From NCBI GenBank assembly GCA_009785705.1, contig WQVS01000001.1, forward strand, positions 6,689 through 70,688: a stretch of DNA of 64,000 nucleotides. Reading direction: 5' to 3'. Of the stretch, positions 16,938-37,817 are shown in pieces. The notes under the pieces were generated by a model. The model saw only the letters and a list, made by a program, of their open reading frames with translations, made no database searches and was not told where the DNA came from. Every line of letters starts with the position of its first letter. Position 1 is the stretch's first letter. Made by a program: the position numbers and the translations under genes. The DNA comes from Coriobacteriia bacterium (lineage in GTDB: Bacteria > Actinomycetota > Coriobacteriia > WRKU01 > WQUG01).

Positions 16938-18608
16938 ATGGGACTAGGCACGGACAGTAGTAAGGCTGGAACTGGTGCTGCGCTTGGCAATCGTAAAGCT
17001 AAGCATATTTTTGTAACGGGTGGCGTTGTTTCGTCACTAGGCAAAGGCATTACCGCCGCTTCTCTGGGACTACTGCTCAAATCGCGTGGCTATAAAGTCA
17101 CCATGCAAAAACTTGACCCTTATCTTAATATTGACCCAGGAATGATGAGCCCTTACCAGCATGGTGAAGTCTTCGTCACAGAAGATGGGGTAGAGACTGA
17201 CCTTGACCTAGGACATTATGAGCGCTTTGTTGATGAAGCCATGACACGCGATAGCAGCGTGACTTCTGGTTCTGTCTACTATGACCTTATTCAGCGTGAA
17301 CGCACGGGTGATTTTTCTGGTGGAACTATTCAAGTTGTGCCACATCTTACTAATGAGGTTAAGGACCGCATTAAGCGCCTAGCCTTAGATACAGACGCAG
17401 ACTTTGTCATCACCGAAGTGGGTGGCACGGTAGGCGACATCGAATCACTACCCTTCATTGAAGCTATTAGGCAGATGCGCCGTGATGTTGGACGGGAAAA
17501 TGTCTGCTACATCCATGTGACGCTCGTACCCTGGATAAAGGCTGCTCATGAAATGAAAACTAAGCCTACGCAGCATAGCGTCCAGCAATTGCGCAGTCAG
17601 GGCATACACCCAAACTTTATCATTTGTCGCTGCGAGCATGAGATAGAGCAAGACCTGCTCGATAAGGTTGCACTATTTTGTGATGTAGAGCCAGAGCGCG
17701 TTCTAACTGCACAGGACTCAGAATCGCTCTTGCTTGTGCCTCATGGACTGCAGGAACAGGGCTTTGATACGAAGGTTCTAGAACGTTTCGGTATGGCGCT
17801 TAATCAGTCCGACCTCAGCGCCTGGGATACCTTTATCGAAAAGACTAATAGCCTAAGTGACAGTGTGCGCATAGCACTGGTAGGAAAATACATAGAGCTT
17901 CCCGACGCCTACTTATCGGTGACAGAGGCCTTAAAGCATGCAGGTGTCCACCACGATCATCTTATTCAGCTGGAATGGATTGATGCAGGCAATTTAAGCC
18001 CCGAAGAAGTTAAAGATGCCTTAAAGGGCTTTGATGGCATCTTAGTCCCAGGAGGCTTTGGGGAACGTGGGGCAGAAGGCAAGGTCGCCGCAGCTCAATT
18101 TGCCAGAGAGAACAAGGTACCCTTCCTCGGCATTTGTTTTGGAATGCAAATGGCAGTCATAGAGTTTGCTCGCAACGTGGCAGACATGAAAGGTGCAGGC
18201 TTCTCAGAGTTTGACCCAGATTCCCCCTACCCAGTCATCAACCTGCTTGCAGGAAAAGAGAATTCTGACTTTACTGATGGCGACATGCGTCTGGGTGCAA
18301 AGGATATTAAAATCGCTCCTAACTCTATCGCGCATGAAATATATGCCAGCCTTGATGCTAGTGAGCGCCATCGTCATAGACATGGCGTAAACAATGAATA
18401 TCGCAAGCATCTAGAGGATGCAGGACTAGTCTTCTCAGGAACTTCAAGCTGCGATGAAGTTGTCGAAATGATAGAGCTGCCACGTAGCGTACATCCTTGG
18501 TTCGTGGGCACGCAAGGACACCCAGAGCTTAAGAGTCGTGCAACACGCCCAACCCCTGTGTTCGCCAGCTTCATACGGGCAGCAATTGACCGCAAAAACG
18601 GAAGTTAA
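16938..18608 (+). CDS. pyrG: CTP synthase
   Basis: Synthetase domain (IFVTGGVVSSLGKG) plus glutamine amidotransferase domain (GICFGMQ). There is an N-terminal extension of about 20 aa. Confidence 0.95.
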   Translation: MGLGTDSSKAGTGAALGNRKAKHIFVTGGVVSSLGKGITAASLGLLLKSRGYKVTMQKLDPYLNIDPGMMSPYQHGEVFVTEDGVETDLDLGHYERFVDEAMTRDSSVTSGSVYYDLIQRERTGDFSGGTIQVVPHLTNEVKDRIKRLALDTDADFVITEVGGTVGDIESLPFIEAIRQMRRDVGRENVCYIHVTLVPWIKAAHEMKTKPTQHSVQQLRSQGIHPNFIICRCEHEIEQDLLDKVALFCDVEPERVLTAQDSESLLLVPHGLQEQGFDTKVLERFGMALNQSDLSAWDTFIEKTNSLSDSVRIALVGKYIELPDAYLSVTEALKHAGVHHDHLIQLEWIDAGNLSPEEVKDALKGFDGILVPGGFGERGAEGKVAAAQFARENKVPFLGICFGMQMAVIEFARNVADMKGAGFSEFDPDSPYPVINLLAGKENSDFTDGDMRLGAKDIKIAPNSIAHEIYASLDASERHRHRHGVNNEYRKHLEDAGLVFSGTSSCDEVVEMIELPRSVHPWFVGTQGHPELKSRATRPTPVFASFIRAAIDRKNGS

Positions 18609-18712
18609 TGGACGCCCTCTCAGGCATCCTACAATACAAGACTTAACATTGACACTAGAAACATGAGCAAGTTACATATCACGCAGAACAAAAGAAAGCA
18701 TGAAGGTATATT

Positions 18713-20023
18713 TTGAGACTACTATGGGGAACAGCCGCAGAGCTGCTAGAACAACGCAAGGGTTATCAGGAATTGCTCGTAAGCGTAGATGGACGCAGCG
18801 ATAAGGCAAGGGCTATCTCGTATCCAGAAGTAAGCGGCTCTGTTGAAGCGGGCGACCGTATCTTGCTCAACACAACTGCTGTTGATTTGAATCTCGGTAC
18901 TGGGGGTAAACACTTTGTTGTCGCCCGTACCAATGGTGCTGATAAAGCTCCAGACAGTAATCCGCCTCAGCTTGACGAAGCTATGAATCCTGAAGCGGGT
19001 CACCTTATGAAATTGCGCTACACCCCTCATCAACACAACGTACTTAGTGTGGAGGCTCAAGAATCCCCTTATCACAAAGTAATGGAAAACCGTGACAGTC
19101 TAGAGGGAGTACCTGTCGTCTGCTGTGGCCTGCACAGTCAAGTACCCTTAGTTGCGGCAGCAGTGAAGAAAGCCATGCCCTCGCTAACAGTGGGCTATGT
19201 CATGGATGACAGCGCAGCCCTTTCCTTGAACCTCTCAAAAGTGCTGGCAGATTCAGTAGAGGCTGGCCTTATCGATGTGACAGTTTCTACAGGACAATCT
19301 TTCGGTGGAGAAATCGAGGCCATCAATCTGCATTCTGGCCTACTTGCAGCCGTTCATGTAGGGGGCTGTGACGTAGTCATTGCAGGCATAGGTCCTGGTC
19401 TTGCGGGAACGGGTACCCCTTTCGGGCACGGGGGAGTAGCCCAGGGCGAAGCCATTAACGCGACTGCATCCCTAGGTGGTGCACCCATTGTCTGCTTGCG
19501 CATGTCACAAGCTGATGCACGTGAAAGGCACCTAGGCATCAGCCACCATTCCTTAACAGCACTCTCACGAGTAGCCTTAGCTCCAGCAACCATCGCTATA
19601 CCACACATGGATGAGAGCTGCCCTGTGCACGAACGCGTCGATGCCGAATTGGACGAGCTCCCCAATGCGGTGGGTCATATGGCCTTCCAGTTGGAAGAAT
19701 CTTTCTACGACGAGGCTGCCTTGCGCGGAATAAGGGTTACTACCATGGGGCGAAACTACGCACAAGACCCTCTTTTCTATGAGGCAGCTAGTGCGGCAGG
19801 TGCTACTGCTGCTATGGTGGCAGTTATGACCATTGAAGAAGAGGCAGCTGCGGCAGTAAAAGAGGCAGAGGAAGCAGCAGAAACTGCCGTATTTGGTGGA
19901 TGTAGCGCAAAGGTAGAGGGGGGTACAGCACTGGCGTCTACAGCGACAGCAGGCTGTCCTTCAGCCAGTAGTTGTGCTTCTGCCAGCACTTGTACAAGTG
20001 ACCATGCAGGTTCATGTGGTTAG
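18713..20023 (+). CDS. Conserved hypothetical protein (possibly DUF3866-like) with an Ala-rich and Cys-rich C-terminal tail
   Basis: 436-aa ORF starting with TTG (start uncertain). The tail is ...GCPSASSCASASTCTSDHAGSCG. Confidence 0.4.
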   Translation: MRLLWGTAAELLEQRKGYQELLVSVDGRSDKARAISYPEVSGSVEAGDRILLNTTAVDLNLGTGGKHFVVARTNGADKAPDSNPPQLDEAMNPEAGHLMKLRYTPHQHNVLSVEAQESPYHKVMENRDSLEGVPVVCCGLHSQVPLVAAAVKKAMPSLTVGYVMDDSAALSLNLSKVLADSVEAGLIDVTVSTGQSFGGEIEAINLHSGLLAAVHVGGCDVVIAGIGPGLAGTGTPFGHGGVAQGEAINATASLGGAPIVCLRMSQADARERHLGISHHSLTALSRVALAPATIAIPHMDESCPVHERVDAELDELPNAVGHMAFQLEESFYDEAALRGIRVTTMGRNYAQDPLFYEAASAAGATAAMVAVMTIEEEAAAAVKEAEEAAETAVFGGCSAKVEGGTALASTATAGCPSASSCASASTCTSDHAGSCG

Positions 20024-20153
20024 AGGCTAACCATTGGCGGACTTGTCAGTAGCAATAAAGAGCGGACGGTAGGCGAGTCTAGTAAACTCGTCTTGTATAA
20101 AAGGAGTGCCTGCGCCATAAACGGTGTAGGACATAAGTGAAAGAAGGATGCAA

Positions 20154-21266
20154 ATGATTATTGGTGTACCCGCAGAAATCAAGAACAATGAATATCGCAT
20201 TGGTTTGACTCCTGCTGCGGCAGCTGACTATGTGGCTCATGGCCACTCAGTCATCATCGAAAAGGGTGCGGGCCTAGGGTCTTCTTTTCCTGACGAGCAG
20301 TACGTAGCTGCTGGTTGTGAAATGGTAGACACGGCCAAAGAGGTATTTGATCGAGCAGAAATGATTGTAAAGGTAAAAGAGCCCCAGGCAGTAGAAATTG
20401 ACATGCTGCGCGAAGGTCAAATTCTTTATACTTATTTGCATCTTGCTCCCGACCGCCCACAGACCGAAGGTCTCGTCAAGTCAGGCGCTGTCTGCATTGC
20501 TTACGAAACAGTAGAGCTACCTGACGGTTCACTGCCGTTATTGGCTCCTATGTCAGAAGTTGCAGGACGTATGGCGACACAAGTAGGCGCACACTTCCTA
20601 GAGAAGCCCTGTGGCGGACGTGGTGTTCTCATGGGTGGCGTACCCGGAGTAGCCCCAGCAAACGTAATCGTTTTGGGTGGTGGAGTAGTAGGAACCAGTG
20701 CTGCTTACATCGCAAAGGGTATGGGTGCTAACGTCACTGTTATGGATATCGACCTGGGTCGTTTGCGTTACTTGGATAATGTATGGGAAAACAAGGTAAC
20801 AACACTGTTCTCATCGCGCGGTAACCTGCTAGAAGTTCTGCCCCAGGCTGATTTAGTAATTGGTGCTATCTACATTCCTGGTGCACGTGCACCATGGCTG
20901 GTTACGCGTGATATGTTAAGCATGATGAAACCAGGAGCAGTTGCAGTAGATGTGGCGATAGACCAGGGTGGCTGTATTGAAACATCAGTACCTACAACAC
21001 ATGCTGATCCAACCTTCTTTGTGGATGGTATTTTGCACTATGGTGTAGCAAATATGCCTGGTGCTGTACCCAATACTTCAACGCGCGCACTGAACAATGC
21101 AACCTTGCGCTACGGTCTCAATATCGCTAACAAGGGCTGGAAGCAGGCCTTGCGTGATGATGCAGCACTAGCAAAGGGCGCAAACGTGATAGAGGGCAAG
21201 GTAGTGTATGAGTGTGTGGCTAATGAGCATGGACTAGAGTACACCCCACTAGAAGAATTGCTCTAG
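20154..21266 (+). CDS. ald: Alanine dehydrogenase
   Basis: Ald N-terminus (MIIGVPAEIKNNEYRIGLTP) and NAD-binding motif GGGVVG. The start is ATG 20148 or 20154. Confidence 0.9.
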   Translation: MIIGVPAEIKNNEYRIGLTPAAAADYVAHGHSVIIEKGAGLGSSFPDEQYVAAGCEMVDTAKEVFDRAEMIVKVKEPQAVEIDMLREGQILYTYLHLAPDRPQTEGLVKSGAVCIAYETVELPDGSLPLLAPMSEVAGRMATQVGAHFLEKPCGGRGVLMGGVPGVAPANVIVLGGGVVGTSAAYIAKGMGANVTVMDIDLGRLRYLDNVWENKVTTLFSSRGNLLEVLPQADLVIGAIYIPGARAPWLVTRDMLSMMKPGAVAVDVAIDQGGCIETSVPTTHADPTFFVDGILHYGVANMPGAVPNTSTRALNNATLRYGLNIANKGWKQALRDDAALAKGANVIEGKVVYECVANEHGLEYTPLEELL

Positions 21267-21344
21267 TAGTGAAATTGTTGACAATTGCTCTTTAGGGTGG
21301 CATTATAAACATAGAGAAAGCCTATCGCTATTAGCGTGGCGGGG

Positions 21345-21488
21345 CTACCTCAGTTTTATGTAGCGCCGTCCACTTGGTCGGCGCTTTGCTTTTCTACTTA
21401 TCCTTAAGATAAGCAGTGCGATTCCCAGAGCAGCCTCCAGCGTCTGTATTGCCAGCAAAGCTAGTATGAGAAATTGAAGAATGCCCAT
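21345..21488 (-). CDS. Candidate 47-aa small membrane peptide (type I toxin-like)
   Basis: Strong SD AAAGGAGGTG lies 5 nt before ATG. The peptide has an N-terminal TM helix (MGILQFLILALLAIQTLEAALGIALLILRI) and a basic tail (SRKAKRRPSGRRYIKLR). It is absent from the ORF track because it is under 60 aa. Confidence 0.35.
   Translation of the reverse strand: MGILQFLILALLAIQTLEAALGIALLILRISRKAKRRPSGRRYIKLR
21362..21395 (+). terminator. Intrinsic terminator of ald
   Basis: Hairpin GCGCCG with loop tccacttggt then CGGCGC, followed by TTTGCTTTTCT. Confidence 0.6.
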
Positions 21489-21630
21489 CTAATCACCTCC
21501 TTTATCAAGGGATAAAAGAGGTAGCAAAACCCGCCTAGCGATAGGCTTGCTAGCTATCATAGGTGGACTACTTTGATTGTGCAAGTAAATAAACGCCAAT
21601 TGACAAAATTGTCAGTAAAATTAATTTGAG

Positions 21631-22557
21631 ATGAATACCTATTTAGAAGATTTTTTAGCTTACTTGAATATCGAGCAGGGGGTTTCGCCTCATACGCTTG
21701 AGGCTTATCGTCGTGATATTGCTGACTTTATTCAGTGGGCTGACTCTCTGGGCAGGACAAGGCTTGAAGATGTGCAGCGCAGTGACATTGATTCTTACAT
21801 CGCTGCGCTTAAGACTGGTAAGCAGCCCTTATCAGCCAATTCAATCGAACGCAGATTATCTGCAATTAATAGTTTCTATAAATATCTTGCGCGGGAAGGT
21901 TTCTCAGTTAACTCTCCTGTATCGCAACTTGCGCGTAGAAAAAAGGATCAACGACTTCCTAATTATCTGAGTATTGCGCAGGTAGAAGCCCTGTTTGCTG
22001 CTCTGGATCCCGACCTTGCTACAAATCCTGCATTAGGATTGCGCAATAGGGCTATGGTAGAACTTCTCTATTCAAGTGGTCTGCGCGTAAGTGAATTATG
22101 TAACTTGCGCATCGACCAAGTAAATATTGATGAGCAGTTCTTGCGCACTATGGGCAAAGGCTCGAAAGAGCGCATTGTGCCTTTAGGTGCTGTTGCTCTG
22201 CAGTGGCTAGAGCGCTATCTGCTACAGGGAAGGTCTGCTCTAAAGCCCAAGCGAGGTCTGCCCGCAACGGCAGATGAAGTATTCTTAACCGTAAAAGGTA
22301 AGCCCATCTATCGCCAGGCAGTCTATGCCGTGGTGCGCACTGCAGGGGAACAGGCAGGCATCAAAGGATTACACCCTCACGTTCTGCGCCATACCTTTGC
22401 CACGCATCTGCTAAACGGAGGAGCAGACCTCCGTGCACTGCAAGAAATGTTGGGTCACAGCGACCTATCAACTACACAGGTATACACTCACCTAAGCAAG
22501 GAACATTTAAAAGAAGAATACATAGCAGCACATCCCCGCGCAAAAAGAGGTACCTGA
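21631..22557 (+). CDS. xerD: Tyrosine recombinase of the XerC/XerD family
   Basis: C-terminal catalytic box HPHVLRHTFATHLL...LGHSDLSTTQVYTHL and an N-terminal core-binding domain. Confidence 0.85.
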   Translation: MNTYLEDFLAYLNIEQGVSPHTLEAYRRDIADFIQWADSLGRTRLEDVQRSDIDSYIAALKTGKQPLSANSIERRLSAINSFYKYLAREGFSVNSPVSQLARRKKDQRLPNYLSIAQVEALFAALDPDLATNPALGLRNRAMVELLYSSGLRVSELCNLRIDQVNIDEQFLRTMGKGSKERIVPLGAVALQWLERYLLQGRSALKPKRGLPATADEVFLTVKGKPIYRQAVYAVVRTAGEQAGIKGLHPHVLRHTFATHLLNGGADLRALQEMLGHSDLSTTQVYTHLSKEHLKEEYIAAHPRAKRGT

Positions 22558-22560
22558 AGT

Positions 22561-22592
22561 TCTTATACCTATGTTGCAGCATAGGTTCTATG
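22561..22592. other. dif/att-like inverted repeat (7-bp arms, 6-bp spacer) directly after xerD. It could instead be the xerD terminator.
   Basis: ACCTATG ttgcag CATAGGT, with extended arms ttatACCTATG / CATAGGTtcta. Confidence 0.3.
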
Positions 22593-22733
22593 AAATTTGA
22601 ATCTATCAAAAGGTAGGCAACAGCAATCTGGTAATAACCCTCTCTGTTTGTAATAAAAAGAAGGCAAAATCTTGTGCTTCATAATAAAATATAGTGCAAT
22701 ACAGCTCCATCCGGCACTTTCGAGAGGACACAA

Positions 22734-25664
22734 ATGACCGCCACCATAACAAATAAAGCCACAGCAGACCGTATCCTAGCCGCCGAAACTTTCGTCACTG
22801 AATGGACAGACCGCGGACAGGAAAACGCAGACACACAAACTTTCTGGAACCAGTTCCTCGAAGAGGTCATGGGCATCTCGCGCGTACACCACCATATCGA
22901 CTATGAAAAGAAAGTCCGCATTGGCCGCTCCAGCAACAGAATCGATGCCTACATCCCAGAATCCCGTATCCTCATTGAACAAAAATCTTACCTTACCGAC
23001 CTTACTAAACCACAACACCAGTCAGACGACACCACTCTCACGCCCTACGAACAAGCATTACGCTACGCAGCAAATCTACCGCAATCAGAACAGCCTAAAT
23101 ACATCATTACCTGTAACTTCAGCGAATTCCACATCTACGACCGTAACCACGACCCAGCAGGAACTGACCCCACCATAATCACCCTGCAAGAACTTCCCCA
23201 GCAATTACAAGCCTTCACCTTCATAACGGAGCCCATTGACACTAGAATCACCCGCCAGCAACAACTAAACTTTGACGCAGCACGACTCATAGGTAATCTC
23301 TACGACGACATCAAGCACCAATACACTGGCAGCGAGCCTAGCAGCGACCCAACAGACACCCCCACCTGCACCCAGCGCGACCTAGCGACATTGATGGTCA
23401 GACTGCTATTCTGCCTCTATTCAGAAGACAGCGGTCTGTTCGAACAGGGTCTCTTCCGCAAATACTTACTGCACATCCCCGCAGGACAAGGGCACTTCCG
23501 CCGTGCGCTCATAGACCTCTTCCGCACCCTCAACACACCCTACGACCAGCGCGACACCCTGCCAACAGAAACCCTGGCCCAGTTTCCCTACATCAACGGC
23601 GGCCTTTTCGCAGACAGCATCGAAATCCCCATCTTTACCAATGACATCAAATTCAAGCTATTGCACGAGGCTGGCGAAAACTTCAACTGGTCAGAAATCT
23701 CACCGGTCATCTTTGGCTCGATATTTGAATCCATCCTCTCGGGCGATGAACGCCGCGCAGGAGGCATGCACTACACCAGCGTAGATAACATCCACAAAGT
23801 AATCGACCCGCTCTTTCTAAACGACCTAAGGCAGCGACTAAACAAAGCAGGTACTAACAAGACTGCACTCACCAAGCTGCAAACCGAGCTCGCCACCCTA
23901 AACTTCCTAGACCCCGCCTGTGGCAGCGGAAACTTCCTAACTCAAACCTATCTAGAGTTGCGGTCCATAGAGAACGAAATCCTAAAGCGTCTCATAGGCG
24001 ACCAAATGACCATGGACCTAGCCACTTTTACAGATGCGGAGGAGGAGGGCGGCCCATCATTGGTCAAAGTAAATGTCGGTCAGTTCTACGGTATAGAAAT
24101 AAACGACTTTGCTGTGTCGGTGGCTAACGCAGCCCTATGGATTGCAGACCACCAAGCCAACCAGCAAACTGCCAAGATTATTGGCCGCCCCGTAGTAAAT
24201 CTGCCACTGATTGACTATCACCACATAGTAGTAGGCAATGCCCTGCGCATGGACTGGAACGAAGTGCTGCCAGCCAGTGAGTGCAGCTACATCATGGGCA
24301 ACCCTCCGTTTTTGGGTTACTCGAACCAAAGTCCAGAACAAAAGGCTGACATGCTAGCAGTTTGCACAGATGAAAACGGTAAGCCACTGAGAGGTGCGGG
24401 CAAAATAGACTACGTGGCTGGCTGGTACTTCAAGACTGCCAGATTCGTGGGGGGGGGGGGCATCTCTGCCGCCCTTGTATCGACAAGCTCAATCACGCAA
24501 GGCGAGCAAGTTGTCTTGTTGTGGCAACCACTAATTGAGGAATTCGGCATGTCGATTGACTTTGCATATCGGACTTTTAACTGGACTGTTGACCACGCAA
24601 ACGCAGCTGCTGTCCACTGTGTAATTATCGGCTTTTCATGCGCTAATTCTTATCTTCGTTGTCCTAACGAATCTCACCTCCGTCATTGCGACCCCCGAGC
24701 CGCAATCTTGGACTCACAGTCAAGAGGCTCTCGCACAAAAATCATATACGACGGTTGTGAAGCTATAGTTGCCCAGAACATCAATCCGTACTTGCTTGAT
24801 GCACCAAATATATTTATCAAGATTCGAACGAAACCTCTTTCAGATGTTCCAAAAATGATAACTGGTAATCGTCCCGCAGATGGTGGTCATCTAATTATCG
24901 AAGACGTTGATTTGGCAGATTTTATCAAGAATGACCCATTGTCAGAAAAGTACATTCGCAAGTTTATGGGAGCAGCAGAATTTATCAACAACAGAAAGCG
25001 TTGGTGTTTGTGGCTTGTTGGTGTTCCGCCAAAAGAACTGCGCAGCATGCCAGAAGTCATGAAGCGAATTGCTGCATGTAGGGAAGACCGTCTGAGTGCA
25101 AAAGATATTGGTCGTCAAAGACTTGCTGAAACACCAACTTTATTTAGAGAAGTGAATAGTCCTCAATCTTTTATAATCATTCCTCGACACTCGTCTGAAG
25201 GCAGGAAATATATTCCTTTGGGGTTTGCTGGTTCTGATGTTATTGTTAATGATGCTGTAATGATTATTCCGGATGCAACACTTTATCACTTTGGAGTCCT
25301 AATTTCTCAATTTCACAATGTTTGGGTGCGGACTGTGGCTGGGCGACTAGAAAGTCGTTATCGCTATTCGAAAAATGTTGTCTACAACAATTTCATCTGG
25401 CCAGACCCAACTGACCTGACCCAAAAAGCAAAAATCGAACAACTCGCCCAATCAGTCTTAGATGCTCGAGCCACCTACTCAGACAGCTCACTAGCAGACC
25501 TCTACGATCCCCTAACTATGCCACCCGACCTACTAAAAACCCACAAAGCCCTCGACAAAGCCGTTGAACAAGCCTACGGAGTCAACTTCCGCGGCAACGA
25601 ACCCGCCATAGTCCAACACCTCTTCCAACTTTATTCTCGAAAGGTTCGGGAGGATTTAGAATGA
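22734..25664 (+). CDS. Type IIL (MmeI-family) single-polypeptide restriction-modification enzyme. It combines an N-terminal PD-ExK nuclease, a gamma-class N6-adenine methyltransferase and a C-terminal target-recognition domain (TRD).
   Basis: 976 aa. D-x9-E-x-K (DAYIPESRILIEQK) near the N-terminus. MTase motif I DPACGSGNFL and motif IV NPPF. The C-terminal domain has a distinct, AT-richer composition. Confidence 0.8.
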   Translation: MTATITNKATADRILAAETFVTEWTDRGQENADTQTFWNQFLEEVMGISRVHHHIDYEKKVRIGRSSNRIDAYIPESRILIEQKSYLTDLTKPQHQSDDTTLTPYEQALRYAANLPQSEQPKYIITCNFSEFHIYDRNHDPAGTDPTIITLQELPQQLQAFTFITEPIDTRITRQQQLNFDAARLIGNLYDDIKHQYTGSEPSSDPTDTPTCTQRDLATLMVRLLFCLYSEDSGLFEQGLFRKYLLHIPAGQGHFRRALIDLFRTLNTPYDQRDTLPTETLAQFPYINGGLFADSIEIPIFTNDIKFKLLHEAGENFNWSEISPVIFGSIFESILSGDERRAGGMHYTSVDNIHKVIDPLFLNDLRQRLNKAGTNKTALTKLQTELATLNFLDPACGSGNFLTQTYLELRSIENEILKRLIGDQMTMDLATFTDAEEEGGPSLVKVNVGQFYGIEINDFAVSVANAALWIADHQANQQTAKIIGRPVVNLPLIDYHHIVVGNALRMDWNEVLPASECSYIMGNPPFLGYSNQSPEQKADMLAVCTDENGKPLRGAGKIDYVAGWYFKTARFVGGGGISAALVSTSSITQGEQVVLLWQPLIEEFGMSIDFAYRTFNWTVDHANAAAVHCVIIGFSCANSYLRCPNESHLRHCDPRAAILDSQSRGSRTKIIYDGCEAIVAQNINPYLLDAPNIFIKIRTKPLSDVPKMITGNRPADGGHLIIEDVDLADFIKNDPLSEKYIRKFMGAAEFINNRKRWCLWLVGVPPKELRSMPEVMKRIAACREDRLSAKDIGRQRLAETPTLFREVNSPQSFIIIPRHSSEGRKYIPLGFAGSDVIVNDAVMIIPDATLYHFGVLISQFHNVWVRTVAGRLESRYRYSKNVVYNNFIWPDPTDLTQKAKIEQLAQSVLDARATYSDSSLADLYDPLTMPPDLLKTHKALDKAVEQAYGVNFRGNEPAIVQHLFQLYSRKVREDLE
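24449..24460 (+). repeat. G12 homopolymeric tract inside the RM gene coding sequence, encoding V-G-G-G-G
   Basis: Direct count from the sequence: agattcGTGGGGGGGGGGGGcatc. It is in frame as assembled. Confidence 0.9.
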
Positions 25665-26647
25665 ACGAGAGCGAGAGAGTAAGAATAGCAATTGAATGTG
25701 GGTGGCTAGTAGCTGGACTTCCAGCTGTCTCTTTTTCGCATTCATTATGCAATCTTTTGTCTGGATTCGGTAAGGCTGAAGAGGTATACCCTATGATATG
25801 TGGATGGACTGCATTTCACAGAAAAAATAATCCCATTGAACGAGCATATCACTATACAAGCATAGAAGGAATGGAAGGAATTTTACTTACACCTGTAAGC
25901 GTGAAAACATCATTAATCTCAAACCTTTGCGCGAATACTGATTTCTCAGATATGTTTGCAATGGGCGTTAAGCCAGTTGGTAGTAGCAACGACTCTTCGG
26001 AGGGCGGAGCATACTGTAAAGAGATTTTTGAGCTCATGCTGAGTGATATGCTAGAGGAAAAATTGATAACAGAATCATTTGTACAGCTTGTCAGTGATGT
26101 TATCTCTAGAGGAGATACATATAAAAAATGGCCAGAAATTCTTGAATATATGGCATGCTTTTCAGCAGCACGTGACAGCGAAACCATGTGGAAAGGCTAC
26201 AGTAATGGACAAGGAGTAGCTCTAGGGTTTGATTTTCAGAATTCCGAGCTACTTTTCCCACTGATGTACTTGCGGACAGAGCAAGAATTTTGTGTGCGCA
26301 AGGCGTGCGAGGCATTATGCAAAATATTCAATGAAGAATATATGCAGGGTAAGGATGAGGTTGAAAGGGCCATCAGCGCAGCATTTGAACTTTTTTCTGG
26401 GCGCTTCAAGAAGGAGGATTCTGTAGATGAGCAAGAGTGGCGGCTACGAATCATAGATGAAGATAATGAGTTTGGCGATAGAGTTAGCGATGAGCGCTTA
26501 TTGGTTGCCTTGCCAAAGTCCTATCTTAAAGAGATAATTTGTAGTCCAGGAACTTCTAACGAGCAGGTGGAAGAAATACGTCGAAGGCTCGAATCAGCAG
26601 GCTACAGCATAAATGTATCCACTTCGTTGCTGACAGTTGCGAATTGA
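25661..26647 (+). CDS. DUF2971-like hypothetical protein, translationally coupled to the RM gene
   Basis: Its start overlaps the RM stop (ATGA). It has a YHYTSIEGMEGIL-type motif typical of DUF2971. AT-rich composition. Confidence 0.4.
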   Translation: MNESERVRIAIECGWLVAGLPAVSFSHSLCNLLSGFGKAEEVYPMICGWTAFHRKNNPIERAYHYTSIEGMEGILLTPVSVKTSLISNLCANTDFSDMFAMGVKPVGSSNDSSEGGAYCKEIFELMLSDMLEEKLITESFVQLVSDVISRGDTYKKWPEILEYMACFSAARDSETMWKGYSNGQGVALGFDFQNSELLFPLMYLRTEQEFCVRKACEALCKIFNEEYMQGKDEVERAISAAFELFSGRFKKEDSVDEQEWRLRIIDEDNEFGDRVSDERLLVALPKSYLKEIICSPGTSNEQVEEIRRRLESAGYSINVSTSLLTVAN

Positions 26648-26792
26648 TGATTGTGGATATAGTTCTGGCAAGACCTATGAGTTCCAGTGCGAACACTGTG
26701 CGCGATGTTTCATGCAAAAATGCTCGTAAGATATTCCCTGCTTCATGCCACATAATACAGAAATTGACATTAGCCGATGTGGATCAGATGCT

Positions 26793-27281
26793 ATGCTAAT
26801 CAAGAAACTTATTTTCACTGCTTTGGGAGTTTTGCTACTAGCGGTCACTTTAGCAGGATGTATTTCTTTCGATGTTTCTCGTGAACCTGTGGTGGCTGAT
26901 GAATTTATTGCTGCTGCAGAAGTCCTCTCATTTGAGACTTACGAGATACCAAGGGACGAAATTGAACACTTGGTTGAAGCTGGAGCAGTCAGTTCTTTTT
27001 CTGCCAACCGCGGAACAGCATCGGTGGGCTTTGACATCTATAGCGATGAAGATAGTGCAGAAGATAATTTTGACTTTTATCGTACAGGGGTAGTGAGCTT
27101 ATTTCCATCGCCTTCGTTTGAGGAGCTTGATGGATGTTCTGCATGGGACTTTCATCAAAGACGGAGTTCTACTGCTTTGGTAGTGGCTATTCGTGTTGAC
27201 AATACGGTGTTCTTTGCTAGTGCAGAAACCATTGAAGACGTTGCGGCAGTAGATGCACTTATTGCTGCCATTGGATACTAA
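26793..27281 (+). CDS. Hypothetical lipoprotein
   Basis: Signal peptide with lipobox LAGC. The ORF is open from 26745. The start is uncertain. Confidence 0.4.
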   Translation: MLIKKLIFTALGVLLLAVTLAGCISFDVSREPVVADEFIAAAEVLSFETYEIPRDEIEHLVEAGAVSSFSANRGTASVGFDIYSDEDSAEDNFDFYRTGVVSLFPSPSFEELDGCSAWDFHQRRSSTALVVAIRVDNTVFFASAETIEDVAAVDALIAAIGY

Positions 27282-27616
27282 ATGGAAAATAGAGTGTCAT
27301 GGGGACGTATAACCTGACGCTTTTTGCTGGACTTGTAGCGAATAGCTTGAATCAGCATAAGCCGCAGGTGAGAGGAGTGGGCAGACTGCCCTATCCACTG
27401 TATCAGGCACTGTCCTAACCACTGACACTATCTTTGGTAGCACCGTCGACCACCGCATTGCAAAAGATTAGATGTATTGCGGGGTGTTAGTGCAGACACA
27501 TTTTGCTGGCTTGCGGGGATGGACAGTTCTTCCTCTGTCAGACCAGAGAACCCTTCTTCACTGAATGAACATGTGTTGCATATTGCGCTACTAAGAGAAG
27601 AGACCTATAATCGTTC

Positions 27617-27797
27617 CTAGTGTGTAGATGCCTGCAGAGTGGTGTAGGTTTTCTACTTTGAAATAGAAGAGTGCCAAAGAGAGATGCTTGACTACTATAC
27701 CGCGTCCCTTGGCCCTTACCTTAGTCCACTTACGTAGTTCGGATAACTGCGTTTGTATATAAAGTTTCTCGGTTACGATTTACGCGAAAGGAGAAGG
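27617..27797 (+). promoter_or_regulatory. Conserved non-coding element, copy 1, in the long leader of the tupABC-moco operon. It is a candidate Mo/W-cofactor-responsive riboswitch or regulator binding region.
   Basis: Shares the blocks CTAGTGTGTAGATGC, TTTTCTACTTT and GAAAGGA with the element at 37664-37817. It also shares a 49-nt core (27733-27781), identical except for one base. Confidence 0.4.
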
Positions 27798-28017
27798 CCC
27801 CTGCTTGCTGGGCTTCAATTGTCGAAAAGCAAGTAATTACCCGGAAAACTGAATACTGATTATGAATGGGCGTTATTGATTCCCATGACTGACCTGTGAT
27901 TATCGGCAGACTTTGTTATTCGCTGATTTTCTAGTCTTGAGTCGTGCCAGTCGTGCGTCTTTGTATCTCACTTTCATCATCGCATAATGAATTTTGATAC
28001 ATATTAAAGGAGTAGAT

Positions 28018-28902
28018 ATGTCTAGTTTTTCACGCACTAAAAAAGGAATTATAAGGCTCGTCACACTCAGTATTCTCGCAGGACTTTTGCTCATTTTTGC
28101 TGCCTGCACAAGTCCAGAAGAAAGCCCTGAGGTAGAAGAAGTTGCTACCGCCCCTGTTGAAGTAACTAACATGGTTTTAGCTTCAACTACTTCCACACAG
28201 GACTCGGGACTTTTCGAAGCTCTTATTCCCGCCTTTGAAGATGCTCATCCAGAAGTAAACGTTCAAGTTATTGCTGTTGGTAGCGGGGAAGCCATGGAAA
28301 TGGGTCGCAGAGGCGACGCTGACCTCCTTCTCGTTCACTCACCTGCAGCAGAAATCACCTTCATGGAAGAAGGCTATGGTTTAGAGCGCAGTCCTGTAAT
28401 GTATAACGATTTCATCATCATAGGGCCAGAAGATGACCCTGCCGATGTCGCAAGTAGTGCTGATGCAGCTGAAGCTTTTGCGCGCATTGCAGAATCAGAA
28501 TCCACCTTCGTTTCTCGTGGGGACGATTCAGGAACACATGCAAGAGAGATGTCCATTTGGGACTTGGCTGAGATAGAGCCAGAGGGCGATTGGTATCAGG
28601 AATCTGGACAAGGCATGGGCGCAACACTGCAAATAGCCGAAGAATTCCAAGCCTATACGCTTACTGATAGAGCAACTTATCTGAATCTCAATAATGAAGG
28701 CGTGCTAGAACTACCTATCTTAAGTGAGGGCTCAAATGAGCTTCTGAATTTCTATCATGTGATAACTCTCGTTGATGCAAGAGAACAAGCAGCAGCGCAA
28801 GCTTTTGCCGACTGGATTATCAGCCCTGCAGGTCAAGAAGTCATCGCTGGCTTTGGTGTAGAGGACTTTGGTGCTCCTCTCTTTACCCCGAACGCTGACT
28901 AG
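28018..28902 (+). CDS. tupA: Tungstate ABC transporter substrate-binding protein TupA
   Basis: TupA-specific TTSTQDSGL motif and a signal peptide. RBS AAAGGAG precedes ATG 28018. Confidence 0.85.
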   Translation: MSSFSRTKKGIIRLVTLSILAGLLLIFAACTSPEESPEVEEVATAPVEVTNMVLASTTSTQDSGLFEALIPAFEDAHPEVNVQVIAVGSGEAMEMGRRGDADLLLVHSPAAEITFMEEGYGLERSPVMYNDFIIIGPEDDPADVASSADAAEAFARIAESESTFVSRGDDSGTHAREMSIWDLAEIEPEGDWYQESGQGMGATLQIAEEFQAYTLTDRATYLNLNNEGVLELPILSEGSNELLNFYHVITLVDAREQAAAQAFADWIISPAGQEVIAGFGVEDFGAPLFTPNAD

Positions 28903-37663: not shown

Positions 37664-37817
37664 CTAGTGTGTAGATGCTTGCTTTTTCAGAAGTTTTCTA
37701 CTTTTAATGTGCCGCCCTTCAAATGCTAAAGGCACCCTACATAGGTAACATGCGTAGTTCGGATAACTGCGTTTGTATATAAAGTTTCTAGGTTACGATT
37801 TTTGTGAGAAGAAAGGA
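37664..37817 (+). promoter_or_regulatory. Conserved non-coding element, copy 2, in the leader of the fdh operon
   Basis: Same conserved blocks as copy 1. The 49-nt core at 37753-37801 differs from copy 1 only at 37790 (A versus C). Confidence 0.4.

What the first reader, a model, noticed from the sequence alone, without database searches (positions are those of the whole stretch)
24449..24460. G12 homopolymer inside an MmeI-family restriction-modification gene: candidate phase-variable switch
Twelve consecutive G's code for V-G-G-G-G at about aa 572. This lies after MTase motifs I (DPACGSGNFL) and IV (NPPF) and before the target-recognition domain. A +/-1 slip would truncate the protein before its TRD, switching both restriction and methylation OFF. 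A tract this long in an R-M coding sequence is the classic slipped-strand-mispairing design of phasevarions, and is not expected by chance in a roughly 50% GC genome.
Basis: partly seen in the sequence, partly recalled or inferred. Interest (0 to 1): 0.75.

Follow-up and report, generated by a model that had tools for sequence, protein, structure and literature searches.

The report
Poly-G on/off switch in restriction enzyme
A run of twelve G's sits inside a single-protein restriction-and-methylation gene of an uncultured gut-type actinobacterium, and other public assemblies of the same strain carry 11 or 13 G's that break the gene, so it is very probably a slippage on/off switch of a kind already known from Campylobacter and Helicobacter.

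Summary
G12 lies at 24449-24460 and encodes V572-G-G-G-G576 of a complete 976-aa MmeI-family (Type IIG/IIL) restriction-methyltransferase gene (22734-25664, + strand). It is the only G/C run longer than 6 in the 64 kb.

Two other public assemblies of the same strain match the window with zero mismatches over 9,991 and 21,800 bases, apart from one base in this tract. One has G13 and one has G11. Each splits the gene into a 601-aa or 599-aa N-terminal piece and a 371-aa C-terminal piece.

None of the 119 closest homologues has GGGG here. The loop length is conserved, and the tract uses the rarest Gly codon three times in a row. A 57-78% identical homologue in another Coriobacteriia MAG carries an independent G14 tract at a different loop and is out of frame there.

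Poly-G switching of Type IIG enzymes is established (Cj0031, JHP1272), so this is a new member of a known kind. It is not shown whether the length differences arose in vivo or from sequencing/PCR stutter, how fast the tract switches, or whether methylation changes regulate other genes.

The parts
22734..25664 (+). MmeI-family Type IIG/IIL restriction endonuclease-methyltransferase gene, 976 aa, intact (ON) at G12
   Evidence: All five Pfam MmeI domains are present: N 17-195, helicase spacer 216-292, MTase 369-636, TRD 689-891, C 896-969. PADLOC REase_MTase_IIG matches full length at 1066 bits. The protein aligns to MmeI structure 5HR4 over aa 19-969, E=4.6e-193. It is identical to NCBI MCL2402641.1, 'MAG: methylase [Coriobacteriia bacterium]'.
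24449..24460 (+). G12 homopolymer (GTG GGG GGG GGG GGC, V572-G576): the proposed slipped-strand switch
   Evidence: Sequence read. G13 is found in Logan SRR10512955_318086 (L001) and G11 in ENA ERZ27257300 k141_11172 (L002), with no other difference over 9,991 and 21,800 bases. Predicted products: G9, G12 and G15 are in frame; G10 and G13 give 600/601 aa; G11 and G14 give 599/600 aa.
22944..22985 (+). PD-ExK endonuclease motif D71...E82-Q-K84
   Evidence: It aligns to the D...E-x-K segment of MmeI in the 5HR4 alignment. The peptide RIDAYIPESRILIEQK starts at aa 69.
23910..23936 (+). MTase motif I DPACGSGNF (aa 393-401), AdoMet binding
   Evidence: It is conserved against MmeI.
24300..24311 (+). 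MTase motif IV NPPF (aa 523-526), catalytic
24798..25406 (+). Target recognition domain (aa 689-891), lost from the N-terminal product in the G11 and G13 forms
   Evidence: Pfam MmeI_TRD, E=1.3e-71. This is the most divergent part of the protein against homologues, at 30-50% identity.
24532..24538 (+). Back-to-back stop codons of the two shifted frames: TAA 24532-24534 (G11 frame) and TGA 24536-24538 (G13 frame)
   Evidence: These stops match the ends of P0123 (599 aa) and P0001 (601 aa).
24537..24551 (+). SD-like GAGGA (24537-24541) followed by in-frame ATG 24549-24551 (M606): a possible re-initiation site that would start the 371-aa C-terminal ORF. Inferred, not shown.
   Evidence: This is the only one of 15 internal in-frame ATGs with an SD-like motif upstream. 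Met at 606 occurs in 0 of 119 homologues and Glu at 603 in 3 of 119. Gene callers placed a 371-aa ORF here in both OFF assemblies.
25661..26647 (+). Downstream gene whose ATG overlaps the MmeI stop (ATGA). It could be co-expressed with, or subject to polarity from, the switch.
   Evidence: ORF coordinates. Weak DUF2971 match. PADLOC defence candidate PDC-S31, E=3.5e-6.

Best explanation
The G12 tract is a hypermutable contingency switch inside a lone MmeI-family (Type IIL) restriction-modification gene of an uncultured Coriobacteriia bacterium. At G12 (and at G9 or G15) the gene encodes the full 976-aa enzyme: nuclease, spacer, N6-adenine methyltransferase, TRD and C-terminal domain. Slipped-strand mispairing during replication adds or removes one G. 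Translation then runs 23-25 out-of-frame codons and stops, at 599 aa for G11 or 601 aa for G13. The truncated product lacks the remaining strands of the methyltransferase fold, the TRD and the C-terminal domain. In this family one TRD directs both methylation and cleavage, so both activities should go OFF together, and a further slip restores them. The population would therefore be a mixture of restricting/methylating and non-restricting/unmethylated cells. Shown here: the tract, the intact domain architecture, and the existence of G11, G12 and G13 alleles on an otherwise identical background, with their predicted products. Inferred: an in vivo origin and high rate of the length changes, loss of both activities in the OFF forms, and the selective benefit. 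The likely benefits are bet-hedging between phage defence and DNA uptake or autoimmunity cost, and possibly methylation-dependent gene regulation.
For: (1) The anatomy is that of a complete MmeI-family enzyme with catalytic motifs.
(2) Three assemblies of the same strain differ only in tract length. L001 matches window 17276-27265 with 0 mismatches and 1 gap, giving G13. L002 matches window 12734-34534 with 0 mismatches and 1 gap, giving G11. The one protein cluster holds the 976-aa, 601-aa, 599-aa and 371-aa forms.
(3) The tract is lineage-specific. None of the 119 best homologues has GGGG anywhere, and the consensus at this position is M-Q-G-T-x with the same loop length.
(4) GGG is the rarest Gly codon in the window (12.7%) yet is used three times in a row after GTG. 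Given the peptide, that coding has a probability of about 4.5e-4.
(5) The tract arose independently elsewhere. A 57-78% identical homologue in another Coriobacteriia MAG (L028, WRBW01000080.1) has G14 in a different MTase loop and changes frame exactly there. Removing one G restores a continuous ORF.
(6) There are precedents. The G9 tract of Cj0031 splits a Type IIG gene into two ORFs, switches in vitro and in vivo, and is absent from other alleles (PMC4889913). Helicobacter pylori JHP1272 and HP1353-1354 are Type IIG/IIL enzymes switched by homopolymers (PMC3936762). In Bifidobacterium breve, another actinobacterium, error-corrected sequencing of a culture grown from one colony found a G11 tract as about 37% G11 and 60% G12 (PMC9187656).
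Against: No reads were available. It is unknown whether the three assemblies come from the same or different samples. Long G runs are prone to PCR and Illumina length errors, and the B. breve paper itself stresses this. The assembly differences therefore do not prove in vivo heterogeneity. Across 55 more distant homologue loci, G/C runs of 8 or more are only marginally enriched inside MmeI genes (5 of 10 runs in 22% of the sequence, p=0.045), so this is not a family-wide design. No enzymatic activity, recognition site or methylome is known for this protein.
Confidence: 0.75

Rival explanations
1. The tract is stably G12 (or another single length) in the organism, and the G11/G12/G13 differences are technical. 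PCR stutter, Illumina homopolymer miscalls and different assembler choices would produce them from the same or similar read sets.
For: All sequences are short-read metagenome assemblies (MEGAHIT-style k141 contig names and Logan contigs). Long G tracts are a known weak point of polymerase-based methods (PMC9187656). Sample relationships could not be established.
Against: Three different consensus lengths on long contigs (about 10 kb, 110 kb and 130 kb) with no other discrepancy in 10-22 kb are hard to obtain unless reads of several lengths are abundant. The Logan G13 contig was seen in 2 samples. A G12 tract is intrinsically unstable wherever it has been measured, including in an actinobacterium. 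The independent out-of-frame G14 tract in L028 is a second instance of the same pattern.
Confidence: 0.12
2. The tract is real and mutable but not a selected switch. It would be a neutral or mildly deleterious accident in a horizontally acquired R-M gene that is drifting toward a pseudogene, with the OFF alleles as the first step of decay.
For: R-M genes are often lost. The gene sits next to a tyrosine recombinase gene, in a stretch with an atypical GC skew of -0.20. Two of three assemblies are OFF, and the L028 homologue is also OFF.
Against: Apart from the single-base slip, the OFF alleles carry no other mutation over the whole 2.9-kb gene. Loop length is preserved, so G12 gives exactly the family-typical protein. 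The tract is built from the rarest Gly codon. A long tract arose independently in a related gene. In Cj0031, too, the tract is restricted to a subset of alleles although the gene is a working switch.
Confidence: 0.15
3. The main selected effect is epigenetic (a phasevarion). ON/OFF methylation of the enzyme's motif would change expression of many genes, and restriction would be secondary or lost.
For: Phase-variable Type III, Type I and one Type IIG methyltransferase are linked to altered gene expression (PMC4889913 abstract and text).
Against: Nothing here tests it. The nuclease motif D71/E82/K84 is intact, so restriction is probably retained. For Cj0031 the association between motif sites and expression changes was weak.
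Confidence: 0.2

Closest known systems
Cj0031 (CjeNIII-type) phase-variable Type IIG R-M enzyme of Campylobacter jejuni NCTC11168 (PMC4889913)
   Same: Both are single-polypeptide restriction-methyltransferases with an intragenic poly-G tract in the middle of the gene. A +/-1 change splits the gene into two ORFs (cj0031/cj0032 there; 599 or 601 aa plus 371 aa here). In both cases the tract is absent from other alleles or homologues.
   Different: Cj0031 has G9 in a 1243-aa enzyme of a different Type IIG lineage, in a 30% GC epsilonproteobacterial pathogen. Its switching and methylation motif are shown experimentally. Here the tract is G12, in a bona fide MmeI-family enzyme from an uncultured Coriobacteriia MAG, and the only evidence is comparison of assemblies.
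Helicobacter pylori JHP1272 / HP1353-HP1354 (Hpy99XIV), Type IIG/IIL enzymes with homopolymer switches (PMC3936762)
   Same: A homopolymer inside a Type IIL-like gene turns it on and off. Different laboratory stocks carry different tract lengths.
   Different: The H. pylori enzymes have two tracts, and the second changes specificity by adding an extra recognition domain. Only one tract is present here, and no alternative TRD was found.
MmeI (PDB 5HR4), prototype of the family
   Same: The two proteins are collinear over aa 19-969 (E=4.6e-193), with the same five domains and conserved nuclease and MTase motifs.
   Different: MmeI has no homopolymer. Its corresponding loop reads I-Q-T-N-A-N (about residues 525-530 of the chain). 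The window protein also has a roughly 24-aa Cys/His-rich insertion between the MTase domain and the TRD.
Bifidobacterium breve UCC2003 pilus-gene G-tracts (PMC9187656)
   Same: These are intragenic G10-G11 tracts in a gut actinobacterium that split an ORF in two. Mixed tract lengths were measured within a clonal culture.
   Different: The target genes encode sortase-dependent pili, not R-M enzymes.

Membership tests
MmeI family (Type IIG/IIL restriction-modification) | One polypeptide with an N-terminal nuclease, helicase-like spacer, gamma-class N6-adenine MTase, TRD and C-terminal domain, in that order | tested here: met
   Five Pfam MmeI domains in order, each above its cut-off. Full-length PADLOC REase_MTase_IIG match. 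Collinear alignment with 5HR4.
MmeI family (Type IIG/IIL restriction-modification) | Catalytic motifs present: PD-ExK nuclease (D...E-x-K), MTase motif I (DPACGxGNF) and motif IV (NPPF) | tested here: met
   D71/E82/K84, DPACGSGNF at aa 393 and NPPF at aa 523.
MmeI family (Type IIG/IIL restriction-modification) | Stand-alone enzyme: no separate methyltransferase or specificity subunit | tested here: met
   The neighbouring genes are a tyrosine recombinase, alanine dehydrogenase, a DUF2971/PDC-S31-like protein, small ORFs and a phosphate-binding protein. None is an MTase or S gene.
MmeI family (Type IIG/IIL restriction-modification) | Methylates one strand of an asymmetric site and cuts about 20/18 nt away | not testable with these tools
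   This needs enzyme assays or a methylome.
SSR-driven phase-variable (contingency) gene | A long simple repeat inside the ORF or promoter, far beyond chance expectation | tested here: met
   G12 against 0.0016 expected in the window. The next-longest G/C run is 6.
SSR-driven phase-variable (contingency) gene | Repeat length differs between otherwise identical genomes or within a population | tested here: met
   G11, G12 and G13 occur with 0 mismatches elsewhere over 9,991 and 21,800 bases. Caveat: these are assemblies, not reads, so a technical origin is not excluded.
SSR-driven phase-variable (contingency) gene | Length changes toggle the reading frame between a full-length and a truncated product | tested here: met
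   976 aa at G12, 599 aa at G11 and 601 aa at G13.
SSR-driven phase-variable (contingency) gene | High-frequency, reversible switching measured in a clonal lineage | not testable with these tools
   The organism is uncultured and no read data were accessible.
Phasevarion (phase-variable regulon) | ON/OFF methylation changes the expression of multiple genes | not testable with these tools
   This needs a methylome and transcriptome of ON and OFF variants.
BREX (PglX) or DISARM (DrmMI) methyltransferase | The MTase belongs to the PglX or DrmMI family and sits in a cluster with brx/pglZ or drm genes | tested here: not met
   PglX models give only local hits (E about 1e-5) and DrmMI models only partial hits, against E=0 full length for Type IIG. 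The flanking genes are metabolic or transport genes.

The most novel reading that the evidence does not exclude
Poly-G switches may have evolved repeatedly and independently in MmeI-family enzymes of uncultured gut Coriobacteriia: G12 in one MTase loop here, G14 in another loop in L028. To my knowledge that would be the first SSR-driven phase-variable R-M systems described in Actinomycetota symbionts. This one may also carry a built-in restart. Both shifted frames stop at 24532-24538, directly on an SD-like GAGGA, with a lineage-specific ATG at M606 just downstream. OFF cells could then still translate a 371-aa TRD-plus-C-terminal fragment and keep the translationally overlapped downstream defence-candidate gene expressed.
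Probability: 0.2. Interest if true: 0.55.

Novelty: new member of a known kind. Interest (0 to 1): 0.4.

Why it matters
Phase-variable R-M systems have been studied almost entirely in host-adapted pathogens such as Neisseria, Haemophilus, Helicobacter and Campylobacter. A poly-G switch in a true MmeI-family enzyme of an uncultured Coriobacteriia symbiont, with ON and both OFF alleles already present in public assemblies, extends the phenomenon to commensal or symbiotic Actinomycetota.

It also matters in practice. The gene will be annotated as intact, as a pseudogene or as two genes depending on the assembler. Methylation-based binning or host-phage linkage for this organism would be unstable, because the motif may be only partly methylated in a population.

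It does not change how such switches are understood to work.

Tried and rejected
- **Plasmid and phage megablast.** Searching the gene against plasmid and phage collections gave no match, so there is no annotated close relative.
- **JGI metagenome contig scans.** Two scans, one with both flanks and a variable gap and one with the left flank alone, gave 0 hits.
- **Exact look-up of the 976-aa ON protein.** It is not in the encoding-contig index, although it is in the protein collection as MCL2402641.1.
- **GTDB representative genomes.** The window's own genome is absent. The best relative is L028, at 57-78% identity.
- **Invertible promoter next to the recombinase gene.** No inverted repeat brackets the 176-nt region upstream of the MmeI gene. 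The only clean pair (21315-21330 / 21536-21551) lies upstream of the recombinase gene. Rejected as part of this switch.
- **att-like direct repeats bounding an island.** None was convincing.
- **BREX or DISARM membership.** Rejected.
- **Family-wide enrichment of homopolymers in MmeI genes.** It is only marginal (p=0.045 for runs of 8 or more, p=0.12 for runs of 9 or more). Only 3 of 119 intact homologues could even encode a G/C tract of 8 or more.
- **Mosaic or recombinant origin from close homologues.** No near-identical segments were found.
- **Literature search for sample identifiers** (SRR10512955, 3300010049, Ga0123356, Lab288P1bin96). Nothing was found, so sample relationships and habitat remain unverified.
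- **PMC11741434 on epigenetic phase variation in the gut microbiome.** The version held has no text on SSRs or Type IIG enzymes.
Full report
**1. The observation**

Window 24449-24460 is an uninterrupted run of twelve G's. It lies in the + strand ORF 22734-25664 (976 aa). The codons are GTG GGG GGG GGG GGC, which encode V572-G573-G574-G575-G576.

It is the only G or C run longer than 6, and the only homopolymer longer than 8, in the 64-kb window. Dinucleotide-preserving shuffles expect 0.53 G8 words against the 5 overlapping ones seen, and no shuffle reached 5. A first-order Markov estimate gives 0.0016 G/C runs of 12 or more per window and about 0.06 per 2.5 Mb. The window is about 47% GC.

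**2. The gene**

The protein has all five Pfam MmeI domains in order:
- N-terminal nuclease, aa 17-195
- helicase-like spacer, aa 216-292
- methyltransferase, aa 369-636
- TRD, aa 689-891
- C-terminal domain, aa 896-969

It matches the PADLOC Type IIG REase-MTase model end to end at 1066 bits. It aligns collinearly with the solved MmeI structure 5HR4 over aa 19-969 (E=4.6e-193).

The nuclease D...E-x-K motif (D71, E82, K84), MTase motif I (DPACGSGNF, aa 393) and motif IV (NPPF, aa 523, window 24300-24311) are all present. No separate methyltransferase, specificity subunit, or BREX/DISARM partner is nearby. The neighbours are CTP synthase, DUF3866, alanine dehydrogenase, a XerC/D-like tyrosine recombinase, a DUF2971/PDC-S31-like protein, small ORFs, a phosphate ABC transporter and molybdopterin genes. 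It is therefore a lone Type IIL-style R-M enzyme.

The exact protein is in NCBI as MCL2402641.1, 'MAG: methylase [Coriobacteriia bacterium]'.

**3. Where the tract sits in the protein**

In the 5HR4 alignment the tract corresponds to the short loop I-Q-T-N-A-N of MmeI. That loop lies between the segment W-Y-x-K-A-A-x-Y-I and the segment I-R-C-A-F-V-S-T-N-S.

Among the 119 best homologues the consensus is M-Q-G-T-x, with the same loop length as here. Position 574 is Gly in 45 of 119, but position 575 is Thr in 96 of 119. None of the 119 has GGGG anywhere in the protein. So the tract was made by substitutions in a variable loop without changing its length. G12 gives exactly the family-typical protein.

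The coding is unusual. GGG is the rarest Gly codon in the window's genes (12.7%) yet is used three times in a row after GTG. Given the peptide, the probability of that coding is about 4.5e-4.

From general knowledge of gamma-class MTases such as M.TaqI, the turn between motifs V and VI is often Gly-rich. This would explain why four glycines are tolerated there. That point was not tested here.

**4. Direct evidence that the length varies**

The protein search returned a 601-aa protein (P0001) that is 100% identical to the first 576 residues and then diverges. Its contig is Logan SRR10512955_318086 (L001, 9,991 bases, seen in 2 samples). It equals window 17276-27265 with 0 mismatches and a single 1-base gap, because the tract is G13.

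The same 90% cluster also holds a 599-aa form (P0123) and a 371-aa C-terminal form (P0122). P0123 comes from ENA assembly ERZ27257300, contig k141_11172 (129,927 bases). The 21,800 bases fetched (L002) equal window 12734-34534 with 0 mismatches and one gap, because the tract is G11.

Three assemblies of what is evidently one strain therefore carry G11, G12 and G13 and differ nowhere else. Predicted products by tract length:

| Tract length | Product |
|---|---|
| G9, G12, G15 | in frame |
| G10, G13 | 600 or 601 aa |
| G11, G14 | 599 or 600 aa |

The caveat is that these are assemblies, not reads. I could not establish whether they derive from the same sample. Long G runs are also subject to PCR and sequencing stutter.

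**5. An independent second case**

Among 55 loci encoding relatives in GTDB representative genomes, the closest is L028. It comes from another Coriobacteriia MAG (WRBW01000080.1) and is 78% identical over aa 332-426 and 57% over aa 427-973.

L028 has a G14 tract at L028:302-315. The tblastn match changes frame exactly there, and a TGA follows immediately. Deleting one G gives a continuous ORF with F-G-F-G-G-G-G-V in a longer variable loop, equivalent to about aa 427-440 of the window protein. At the window's tract position L028 reads Y-I-C-E-T-C-I, with no repeat. Two related genes have therefore acquired long poly-G tracts at different loops, and the second is assembled in an OFF frame.

Weaker hints:
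- An Eggerthellaceae MAG contig (L040) ends 5 nt before a G9 tract inside its homologue.
- L016 has an in-frame G9.
- L018 and L051 share an in-frame C8.

Across all 55 loci the enrichment of G/C runs of 8 or more inside the MmeI genes is only marginal (5 of 10 runs in 22% of the sequence, p=0.045). This is a lineage-specific feature, not a family-wide one.

**6. Mechanism**

Shown: the tract, the intact enzyme at G12, and the existence and products of the G11 and G13 alleles.

Inferred from established knowledge of slipped-strand mispairing and of the MmeI family, in which one TRD directs both methylation and cleavage (as summarised in PMC3936762):
- Replication slippage changes the tract by one base.
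- The N-terminal product then lacks the rest of the MTase fold (aa 577-636), the TRD and the C-terminal domain.
- Methylation and restriction therefore go OFF together, and a further slip restores them.

Because both activities are in one polypeptide, switching OFF leaves no orphan nuclease.

The likely benefit is bet-hedging. Candidate trade-offs are phage defence against DNA uptake or self-restriction cost, and escape from phages that have acquired the methylation mark. A gene-regulatory (phasevarion) effect is possible but untested.

**7. Comparison with what is known**

Cj0031 of C. jejuni is the closest functional analogue. It is a Type IIG gene with a G9 tract in mid-gene that splits it into cj0031 and cj0032. 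It is phase-variable in vitro and in vivo, and the tract is absent from other alleles (PMC4889913).

H. pylori JHP1272 and HP1353-1354 are Type IIG/IIL enzymes with homopolymer on/off switches. Their tract lengths differ between laboratory stocks (PMC3936762).

For Actinomycetota, Bifidobacterium breve pilus genes carry G10-G11 tracts. Error-corrected sequencing found about 37% G11 and 60% G12 in cultures grown from one colony (PMC9187656). This shows how unstable such tracts are in that phylum.

The present case is therefore a new member of a known kind. What is new is the family (a bona fide MmeI homologue), the host lineage (uncultured Coriobacteriia) and the apparent independent recurrence.

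**8. An extra feature worth testing**

The two shifted frames end back to back, at TAA 24532-24534 (G11 frame) and TGA 24536-24538 (G13 frame). They are followed immediately by GAGGA (24537-24541) and an in-frame ATG at 24549 (M606).

This is the only one of 15 internal in-frame ATGs with an SD-like motif upstream. Met at 606 occurs in 0 of 119 homologues, where Ile or Val is usual, and Glu at 603 in only 3 of 119. Gene callers placed the 371-aa ORF there in both OFF assemblies.

This could be a termination-reinitiation site. In OFF cells it would yield a fragment made of the TRD and C-terminal domain. It might also keep ribosomes on the mRNA up to the downstream gene, whose ATG overlaps the MmeI stop (25661-25664). 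It may equally be coincidence, and I rate it as speculative.

**9. Verdict**

My confidence that this is a genuine slippage-driven ON/OFF switch of the R-M enzyme is about 0.75. The main rival is technical length noise (about 0.12). A non-adaptive decay reading is about 0.15.

Interest is moderate at 0.4. The reading is correct and now backed by evidence, but the mechanism is well known.

Noticed in passing
window 24532-24551: The stop codons of both shifted frames (TAA 24532, TGA 24536) sit directly on or before an SD-like GAGGA (24537-24541) and a lineage-specific in-frame ATG (24549, M606; Met in 0 of 119 homologues). This is a possible translational restart that would give a 371-aa fragment containing the TRD and C-terminal domain in OFF variants.
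   Followed up: partly
window 25661-26647: The downstream 328-aa gene starts with an ATGA overlap on the MmeI stop codon. It has a weak DUF2971 match and matches the PADLOC defence candidate PDC-S31 (E=3.5e-6). It may be co-expressed with the switch or affected by polarity from it.
   Followed up: partly
window 25156-28283 (L062, L063): Two short contigs from other samples are 100% identical to the window: JGI 3300010049 Ga0123356_10077927 and ENA ERZ27264051 k141_3999755. Both begin at 25156/25157, inside the TRD-coding part of the MmeI gene. That suggests an assembly-graph branch there, which could reflect strain variation in the upstream part of the gene.
   Followed up: no
window about 24651-24761 (aa about 640-676): A Cys/His-rich insertion of about 24 aa (SCANSYLRCPNESHLRHCDPRAAILDSQSRG) lies between the MTase domain and the TRD. 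It is absent from MmeI and from the L028 homologue. It could be a small metal-binding knuckle or just a variable linker.
   Followed up: no
L028:302-315 (WRBW01000080.1, Coriobacteriia MAG Lab288P1bin96): A G14 tract lies in a different MTase-domain loop of a 57-78% identical MmeI homologue, and the gene is frameshifted at the tract as assembled. G13 would be in frame.
   Followed up: yes
L040:1-14 (CANOHY010000017.1, Eggerthellaceae MAG): The contig ends 5 nt upstream of a G9 tract (coding W-G-G-V) inside an MmeI homologue. This may be an assembly break at a heterogeneous tract.
   Followed up: no
window 21315-21330 and 21536-21551: A 16-nt inverted repeat (94% complementary, 205 nt apart) lies between the alanine dehydrogenase gene and the XerC/D-like recombinase gene, and brackets a 47-codon minus-strand ORF. 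It could be a small invertible element or a recombinase site.
   Followed up: no
window 22001-24000: A strongly negative GC skew (-0.20) and high AT skew (+0.20) cover the recombinase gene and the 5' half of the MmeI gene, unlike the rest of the window. This is compatible with horizontal acquisition.
   Followed up: no
window about 27733-27781 and 37753-37801: A 49-nt sequence downstream of the R-M locus recurs at 98% identity about 10 kb away (blastn side hits). Its nature is unknown.
   Followed up: no
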